From Escherichia coli (GTDB lineage Bacteria; Pseudomonadota; Gammaproteobacteria; Enterobacterales; Enterobacteriaceae), in assembly GCF_003790525.1 (NCBI RefSeq), contig NZ_CP033635.1: 64,000 nt of DNA, one strand, 5' to 3'. Shown here piece by piece: positions 23,391-23,485 of the stretch (its first letter is position 1; each line of letters starts with the position of its first letter). The notes under the pieces are model-generated. The model made no database searches. It was not told the origin of the DNA and was given only the letters and a program-made list of their open reading frames with translations. Position numbers and translations under genes: made by a program.

Positions 23391-23460
23391 AGATGTTGTT
23401 CTGCCAATGTTATGCCGCTGCACCCTCAACTTACGTTATCCCAACTTGTGACTGTTATTC

Positions 23461-23485
23461 GGCGCTCCACGGAGCGCCTTTTTTT
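23461..23485 (+). terminator. rho-independent terminator after malG
   Basis: Hairpin ggcgctccacggagcgcc followed by T7; the T-run overlaps the stop codon of the convergent psiE. Confidence 0.65.

What the first reader, a model, noticed from the sequence alone, without database searches (positions are those of the whole stretch)
23391..23483. xylE (xylose/proton symporter) absent between malG and psiE
malG and psiE are convergent and only 93 bp apart, sharing one terminator hairpin whose T-run overlaps the psiE stop codon; in K-12 xylE lies between them. The strain would then rely on the ABC xylose transporter alone.
Basis: partly seen in the sequence, partly recalled or inferred. Interest (0 to 1): 0.3.

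Follow-up and report, generated by a model that had tools for sequence, protein, structure and literature searches.

The report
xylE never inserted at malG–psiE
This E. coli strain (SMS-3-5) really does lack the xylose/proton symporter gene xylE between malG and psiE, but a third of E. coli and most related enteric bacteria share this arrangement, so it is ordinary and already described.

Summary
malG (22500-23390, +) and psiE (23484-23894, -) converge across a 93-bp spacer. That spacer holds one G+C-rich hairpin (23461-23478), and its T-run (23479-23485) overlaps the psiE stop codon. The window is E. coli SMS-3-5 (phylogroup F).

In K-12 a 1,797-bp cassette lies exactly between that T-run and the psiE stop. 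It carries the xylE promoter region, xylE and its own terminator. SMS-3-5 has no xylE-like DNA elsewhere on its chromosome or on its large plasmid. It keeps intact xylAB and xylFGHR.

The absence is common. Of 5,426 complete E. coli genomes, 1,786 have the same contiguous junction, including CFT073 (B2) and 042 (D), and 3,639 carry the cassette.

The empty junction is also the general enterobacterial state. It occurs in E. albertii, E. whittamii, two other Escherichia species and 67 of 76 species representatives, and the hairpin covaries across them. Genuine xylE losses (C. braakii, a few E. coli) leave scars; SMS-3-5 has none.

The spacer itself is the malG 3'UTR that gives the published sRNA MalH, and it is 100% identical to K-12. 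The best reading is an ancestral, never-occupied site, with xylE gained later in the A/B1/E lineage, as already reported. Low interest.

The parts
22500..23390 (+). malG, the last gene of the malEFG maltose ABC transporter operon
   Evidence: ORF. Annotated as malG (WP_001252058.1) in NC_010498.1. The same protein accession is annotated in K-12, CFT073 and 042.
23382..23485 (+). malG 3' end and 3'UTR, corresponding to the MalH sRNA. The 5' end is inferred from the published 104-nt length; the 3' end is the terminator T-run.
   Evidence: Window 23361-23485 is identical to the K-12 sequence. [quoted passage not shown] PMC11347178 calls the K. pneumoniae malG.psiE intergenic region the MalH orthologue.
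23461..23485 (+). Intrinsic terminator: a 7-bp G+C-rich stem with a 4-nt loop (23461-23478), followed by T7 (23479-23485)
   Evidence: Fold. The terminator scan finds it on the + strand only. Across 48 distinct enterobacterial sequences, 100% of cells are paired and 4 of 7 pairs show compensatory double changes; 0 of 500 shuffles reach the observed values.
23484..23894 (-). psiE (phosphate-starvation-inducible protein). Its stop codon overlaps the last two T's of the terminator T-run.
   Evidence: ORF. Annotated as psiE (WP_000202902.1).
23485..23486 (.). Unoccupied xylE site: the point where K-12 and other A/B1/E strains carry the 1,797-bp xylE cassette
   Evidence: K-12 left junction is ...GGAGCGCCTTTTTTT|CTTTCGTC... 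and the right junction is ...GGCGTGCTGACTTTTT|ACTCCCGC.... In one search the BLAST breakpoints fall at query positions 582-586, which is window 23481-23485.

Best explanation
The 93-bp malG-psiE spacer of SMS-3-5 is the ancestral enterobacterial arrangement.

What it is and how it works:
- It is the malG 3'UTR, which gives the Hfq-associated sRNA MalH.
- It ends in a conserved intrinsic terminator, and the U-run of that terminator abuts the stop codon of the convergent gene psiE.
- The lineage leading to SMS-3-5 (phylogroup F) never received xylE. The same holds for B2 and D.
- The xylE cassette (its own promoter region, the gene and its own terminator; 1,797 bp) was inserted once between the T-run and the psiE stop. 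This happened on the branch leading to phylogroups A, B1 and E.

Functional consequence: SMS-3-5 has the xylose regulon (xylR, xylAB) and the high-affinity ABC importer XylFGH, but lacks the low-affinity proton symporter. Any other xylose entry would be through promiscuous carriers.

Shown here: the anatomy, the distribution, the absence elsewhere in the genome, the outgroup states and the lack of scars. Inferred: the direction of the event (gain rather than loss) and the physiological consequence.
For: Junction anatomy.

Distribution in E. coli:
- 1,786 of 5,426 genomes have the contiguous junction.
- 3,638-3,639 carry xylE or the cassette, all at 95% identity or more; every listed full-length row covers query positions 1 to 1796-1797, so the cassette boundaries are the same. 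This points to one event.
- Empty: CFT073 (B2), 042 (D), SMS-3-5, IAI39 and CE10 (F).
- Occupied: K-12 (A), O26 and O111:H8 (B1), O157:H7 (E).

Outgroups: E. whittamii, E. albertii, Escherichia sp. E1V33 and Escherichia sp. MOD1-EC7003 have the same 92-94-bp spacer with the hairpin, T-run and stop. Of 76 species representatives, 67 lack xylE at the site. Most of those have the identical architecture, and the hairpin covaries.

Genuine losses leave scars:
- The C. braakii spacer (382 bp) retains promoter, internal and 3' xylE fragments plus the second terminator.
- E. coli PCN061 and TOE17 retain 280- and 248-bp pieces.
- SMS-3-5 has none.

Insertion signature elsewhere: the K. oxytoca cassette is flanked by a duplicate of about 17 nt of the psiE 3' end.

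Flanks: K-12 and SMS-3-5 are 98-100% identical right up to the junction.

Literature: PMC6896753 reconstructs xylE as acquired within the E/B1/A lineage.

xylAB and xylFGHR are intact.
Against: - dS of xylE between K-12 and the C. freundii complex (1.05-1.13) equals that of the flanking core genes (0.84-1.29; psiE itself 0.62-0.72). No recent donor is identified, and that pattern is also what vertical descent with repeated loss would give.
- The cassette sits at the same site in four genera: E. coli, the C. freundii complex, K. oxytoca and some Salmonella enterica. That is compatible with an old presence/absence polymorphism.
- Both cassette ends in K-12 carry a T5-7 run. Slipped-strand deletion, or allelic replacement by an empty allele, could therefore remove the cassette without a scar.
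- E. fergusonii was not among the loci retrieved.
- Monophyly of the xylE+ phylogroups rests on established knowledge of the E. coli tree, not on a tree built here.
Confidence: 0.77

Rival explanations
1. Secondary, scar-free loss. The Escherichia ancestor carried xylE at this site, and the lineage of SMS-3-5 (with B2, D and the other Escherichia species) lost it precisely. The loss would have occurred either by slippage between the two terminator T-runs or by homologous replacement with an empty allele.
For: TTTTT microhomology lies at both cassette ends in K-12. xylE shows genus-level dS equal to the core flanks. The same site is occupied in Citrobacter, Klebsiella oxytoca and Salmonella.
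Against: This needs several independent and identically precise losses: E. albertii, E. whittamii, two further Escherichia species, B2/F and D. The alternative is a single gain. The losses actually observed are messy. The hairpin/T-run/stop architecture is shared by most of the 67 species representatives that lack xylE at the site. K. oxytoca shows an insertion signature. A published ancestral reconstruction calls it a gain.
Confidence: 0.2
2. xylE is present but has moved elsewhere in the SMS-3-5 genome.
For: None found. Only DNA-level searches of the chromosome were possible, and the three small plasmids (about 8, 4 and 3 kb, from memory of the genome record, not retrieved here) were not read.
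Against: The chimeric query gave one place on NC_010498.1 in blastn 'distant' mode. The cassette query matched 3,639 genomes, all at 95% identity or more, with a single plasmid place in the whole collection. The counts of empty-junction and xylE+ genomes are complementary: 1,786 + 3,639 = 5,425 of 5,426. The pSMS35_130 annotation has no xylE.
Confidence: 0.01
3. Assembly artefact: a collapsed or misjoined region in the SMS-3-5 assembly.
For: None.
Against: The same junction occurs in 1,786 independent complete genomes and in other species.
Confidence: 0.01

Closest known systems
E. coli K-12 malG-xylE-psiE locus (b4032-b4031-b4030; b-numbers from memory)
   Same: malG, the whole 93-bp malG 3'UTR with its hairpin and T7, and psiE are 98-100% identical and in the same order and orientation.
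   Different: K-12 carries 1,797 extra bases between the T-run and the psiE stop: a 34% G+C promoter region, xylE, and a second hairpin (CAGCACGCC...GGCGTGCTG) with its own T-run.
Empty malG-psiE junction of E. coli CFT073 (B2), 042 (D) and IAI39 (F), and of E. albertii and E. whittamii
   Same: The same 92-94-bp spacer, hairpin and T-run overlapping the psiE stop, with no xylE.
   Different: Only a few point differences, for example in the hairpin loop (CCAC in E. coli, CTTC or CTAC in other Escherichia).
MalH, the 3'UTR-derived sRNA of malG (Iosub et al. 2020, PMC8081044)
   Same: The sequence from the end of malG through the terminator is identical to K-12, where MalH was mapped.
   Different: In K-12 the MalH terminator is followed by the xylE promoter region. 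Here it is followed immediately by the end of the convergent psiE gene. Expression and processing in SMS-3-5 were not tested.
Degraded xylE locus of Citrobacter braakii ATCC 51113
   Same: The same genomic site, with no functional xylE.
   Different: C. braakii keeps a 382-bp spacer holding promoter, internal and 3'-terminal xylE fragments and the xylE terminator, which is a true deletion scar. SMS-3-5 has none.

Membership tests
xylE-negative (unoccupied) malG-psiE junction of Enterobacteriaceae | malG and psiE are convergent and contiguous, with no xylE between them | tested here: met
   The same state occurs in 1,786 E. coli genomes and in 67 of 76 species representatives.
xylE-negative (unoccupied) malG-psiE junction of Enterobacteriaceae | The malG terminator hairpin is followed by a T-run that abuts or overlaps the psiE stop codon | tested here: met
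xylE-negative (unoccupied) malG-psiE junction of Enterobacteriaceae | No remnant of the xylE cassette (promoter region, coding fragments or second terminator) | tested here: met
   blastn with word size 7 and tblastn against the window find nothing above chance. For contrast, see C. braakii.
xylE deletion scar (secondary loss) | Residual cassette sequence or a second (xylE) terminator at the junction | tested here: not met
   The only hairpin present is the malG one.
MalH sRNA (malG 3'UTR-derived) | Located at the 3' end of malG and includes the stop codon and a Rho-independent terminator | tested here: met
   definition taken from PMC8081044.
MalH sRNA (malG 3'UTR-derived) | Sequence identity to the mapped K-12 MalH | tested here: met
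   Window 23361-23485 is identical to K-12.
MalH sRNA (malG 3'UTR-derived) | Accumulates as a stable processed RNA, binds Hfq, and regulates ompC, ompA and MicA | not testable with these tools
   Needs Northern blotting, RNA-seq or CLASH in SMS-3-5.
Bidirectional intrinsic terminator shared by convergent genes | A G+C-rich hairpin followed by a U-run on the malG strand | tested here: met
   The stem covaries.
Bidirectional intrinsic terminator shared by convergent genes | A U-run after the hairpin on the psiE strand as well | tested here: not met
   On the minus strand the sequence after the hairpin is GAAUAACAGUCAC. The scan reports no minus-strand terminator.
D-xylose utilisation system of E. 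coli (xylAB, xylFGH, xylR, xylE) | The catabolic genes, the regulator and the ABC importer are present and intact | tested here: met
   Annotated full-length, non-pseudogene CDSs xylB, xylA, xylF, xylG, xylH and xylR lie at NC_010498.1 3954075-3962315.
D-xylose utilisation system of E. coli (xylAB, xylFGH, xylR, xylE) | The proton symporter XylE is present | tested here: not met

The most novel reading that the evidence does not exclude
In xylE-less E. coli (B2, D, F) and most enterobacteria, psiE has no U-run terminator of its own. Its transcripts would run straight into the MalH terminator and then on, antisense to MalH and the 3' end of malG. Induction of psiE by phosphate starvation could therefore interfere with MalH and malEFG expression. 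On this reading, the xylE cassette acquired by the A/B1/E lineage acts as a 1.8-kb insulator that uncoupled the two. A related reading is that the promoter-gene-terminator xylE cassette is a recurrently transferred unit. It would target this one site in four genera by homology-facilitated illegitimate recombination.
Probability: 0.1. Interest if true: 0.35.

Novelty: already known. Interest (0 to 1): 0.1.

Why it matters
It matters little for discovery. xylE is a known variable gene in E. coli, and a published ancestral reconstruction already lists it as gained in the lineage that includes K-12 (PMC6896753).

It has three practical uses:
1. Metabolic models and xylose-engineering work based on K-12 should not assume XylE exists in B2, D or F strains such as SMS-3-5, CFT073 or 042.
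2. The locus is a clean phylogenetic presence/absence marker separating A/B1/E from B2/D/F.
3. It is a reminder that K-12 is the derived state here, and that the 'intergenic' 93 bp encodes a characterised sRNA, MalH.

Tried and rejected
- I looked for xylE or cassette remnants in the window with tblastn and blastn (word size 7). Only chance-level hits appeared.
- I looked for xylE elsewhere in SMS-3-5 using a chimeric query that forced the SMS-3-5 record to the top of the list. It returned one place only. The large plasmid annotation shows nothing.
- I tested whether the flanks next to the junction carry foreign, diverged sequence in K-12 compared with SMS-3-5. They do not: 0-10 mismatches per 200 bp. 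The one exception is a REP-like indel upstream of psiE.
- I tested whether the 75 bp that follow the MalH terminator in K-12 are a decayed copy of the psiE 3' end, as in K. oxytoca. There is no similarity: 99% of shuffles score at least as well.
- I tried to identify a donor from dS values and from the nearest XylE homologues. The closest non-E. coli sequences (C. freundii complex 93-94%, Salmonella 92%, K. oxytoca 92% by tblastn) are all at genus-level distance, so no donor emerges.
- Rfam has no family covering the spacer. MalH was identified through the literature instead.
- UMN026 (NC_011751.1) is not in the collection, so 042 was used for phylogroup D.
- The literature search for xylE in Nissle or B2 strains gave nothing relevant.

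Full report
**1. What is in the window**

The window is the E. coli SMS-3-5 chromosome. Positions 22900-23950 are 100% identical to NC_010498.1 4590666-4589616.

- malG occupies 22500-23390 on the + strand, and psiE occupies 23484-23894 on the - strand.
- The spacer 23391-23483 is 93 bp.
- It contains a 7-bp G+C-rich stem with a 4-nt loop at 23461-23478, followed by T7 at 23479-23485.
- The last two T's are the first two bases of TTA, the complement of the psiE stop codon.

**2. Comparison with K-12**

In a K-12 record (DH5alpha, L001) the gene order is malG, xylE, psiE, with xylE on the malG strand.

- The 93-bp spacer, including the hairpin and T7, is present unchanged directly after malG.
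- It is followed by 1,797 extra bases: a 34% G+C promoter region, the 1,476-bp xylE gene, and a second hairpin (CAGCACGCC...GGCGTGCTG) with its own T-run that abuts the psiE stop.
- The difference is thus a clean indel between the T-run and the A of the psiE stop, with TTTTT at both ends.
- The flanks in K-12 and SMS-3-5 are 98-100% identical right up to the junction.

**3. Is xylE elsewhere in this genome?**

- tblastn and blastn against the window find nothing.
- A chimeric query joined 2,451 bp of the window to reverse-complemented xylE. Searched with blastn word size 11, it put the SMS-3-5 chromosome first with a single matching place, the window part.
- The whole cassette, searched the same way, matched 3,639 of 5,426 genomes. 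All matches were at 95% identity or more, none was weak, and only one plasmid place appeared in the whole collection.
- The annotation of pSMS35_130 has no xylE.
- SMS-3-5 has full-length xylB, xylA, xylF, xylG, xylH and xylR.

XylFGH is the high-affinity system (Km 0.2-4 uM) and XylE the low-affinity one (63-169 uM). However, AraE, GalP and AraFGH are also reported to carry xylose (PMC10989795), so 'alone' is too strong.

**4. How common is the empty junction?**

- 1,786 of 5,426 complete E. coli genomes have the contiguous malG-psiE junction.
- 3,638-3,639 have xylE or the cassette. The two counts sum to 5,425.
- Empty-site genomes include CFT073 (B2), 042 (D), and IAI39 and CE10 (F).
- xylE+ genomes include K-12 (A), O26 and O111:H8 (B1), and O157:H7 (E).
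- Every full-length cassette match listed has the same end points, which indicates a single event in E. coli.

**5. Which state is ancestral?**

A scan of one genome per species with PsiE returned 80 loci. I annotated them with tblastn.

- malG and psiE are directly adjacent in E. whittamii, E. albertii, Escherichia sp. E1V33 and Escherichia sp. MOD1-EC7003, with a 92-94-bp spacer nearly identical to SMS-3-5.
- Overall, 67 of 76 loci with both genes complete lack xylE. Most have the same hairpin/T-run/stop architecture.
- Across 48 distinct sequences the stem is paired in 100% of cells. Four of 7 pairs show compensatory double changes, and no shuffle or slid register comes close.
- xylE sits at this site only in eight C. 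freundii-complex species and in K. oxytoca. It is also there in some Salmonella enterica.

Genuine losses look different:
- C. braakii retains a 382-bp spacer with promoter, internal and 3' xylE fragments and the second terminator.
- E. coli PCN061 and TOE17 retain 280- and 248-bp pieces.

In K. oxytoca the cassette is flanked by a duplicate of about 17 nt of the psiE 3' end, which is an insertion signature.

Together with a published reconstruction that lists xylE as acquired within the E/B1/A lineage (PMC6896753), the best reading is that SMS-3-5 keeps the ancestral, unoccupied site. That paper assigns the gain to the A/B1 sublineage, whereas my data show that O157:H7 also has xylE.

**6. 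Caveats on direction**

- dS of xylE between K-12 and Citrobacter (1.05-1.13) is the same as for malF, malG and yjbH (0.84-1.29).
- The nearest non-E. coli XylE proteins are all at genus-level distance, so no donor can be named.
- The T-run microhomology, or allelic replacement by an empty allele, could in principle remove the cassette without a scar.
- E. fergusonii was not retrieved.

I therefore put about 0.2 on scar-free secondary loss.

**7. What the 93 bp actually are**

Rfam has no family for the spacer. However, the sequence is identical to the K-12 malG 3' end, where the 104-nt sRNA MalH was mapped. [quoted passage not shown] The K. pneumoniae 'malG.psiE.IGR' was identified as its orthologue (PMC11347178).

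The hairpin is a canonical terminator only on the malG strand. On the psiE strand it is followed by GAAUAACAG. 'Shared terminator' is therefore an inference, not a demonstrated property.

**8. Verdict**

It is the common and ancestral state, present in a third of E. coli, and it is already in the literature. K-12 is the derived genome here. Interest is low.

Noticed in passing
window 47859-47876 (aceK/iclR junction; NC_010498.1 4565690-4565707): aceK and iclR are only 16 bp apart, and arpA, which lies between them in K-12 (from memory), is absent. This is the expected marker state for phylogroup F/B2 strains in the Clermont typing scheme (also from memory).
   Followed up: no
window 54074-55778 (next to the 5S rRNA at 55904-56019): A GNAT acetyltransferase gene (yjaB-like) is split by an IS3-family element, and no yjaA is annotated between the rrn operon and metA. 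The Rfam 'isrC' hit at 55415-55537 lies at the start of that IS element, so it is probably IS sequence rather than an independent sRNA gene.
   Followed up: partly
window 33881-40399: A sorbose-type PTS operon (sorE, IIA-IID, an SDR oxidoreductase, a regulator) plus a shikimate 5-dehydrogenase sits between pepE and rluF. It is also present in strain 042. From memory it is absent from K-12, which would make it another accessory sugar locus in this window.
   Followed up: no
window 13734-15314: An intact 1,581-bp SopA-family (yjbI-like) gene lies between malM and ubiC. It is present in 042 but absent in CFT073, where malM is followed directly by ubiC.
   Followed up: no
window about 23990-24060 (upstream of psiE): K-12 carries a longer REP-like palindromic element here (GCCGGATAAGCCGCGCC...GGCGCATCCGGCA) that SMS-3-5 lacks or has in a shorter form. 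The local alignment shows 73 mismatches or gaps in one 200-bp window.
   Followed up: partly
L068 (Klebsiella oxytoca NBRC 105695), between malG and xylE: The xylE cassette is flanked by a direct repeat of about 17 nt of the psiE 3' end (TTTATTCGCGTTTCAG / TTTACTCGCGTTTCAG). About 170 nt of unrelated filler lies upstream of the xylE promoter region. The sister species K. michiganensis and K. grimontii have the empty site. This looks like homology-facilitated illegitimate insertion.
   Followed up: partly
L020 (Citrobacter braakii ATCC 51113), malG-psiE spacer: The 382-bp spacer is made of xylE cassette remnants: the promoter start, two internal fragments, and the 3' end with its terminator. 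It is a clear example of secondary xylE decay within the C. freundii complex.
   Followed up: yes
L090 (Salmonella enterica CP022117.1 4414980-4426455): Some Salmonella enterica carry xylE (92% amino-acid identity to K-12) at the same malG-psiE site. The downstream hairpin and right junction differ, and psiE ends in TAG without T-run overlap. Presence/absence polymorphism at this site therefore exists in at least four genera.
   Followed up: partly
window 23436-23450 and alignment A1: The motif CTTGTGACTGTT immediately upstream of the terminator hairpin is nearly invariant across enterobacterial genera, while the rest of the spacer varies. It may be a functional part of MalH, such as an Hfq-binding or seed-adjacent element. 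I did not check it against the published seed.
   Followed up: no
window 28455-28603 and 30498-30694; 16622-16692 and 49680-49757: Other Rfam hits are STnc430 just downstream of pgi, the lysine riboswitch upstream of lysC, and two naRNA4/REP-type elements. All are as expected for this region of E. coli.
   Followed up: no
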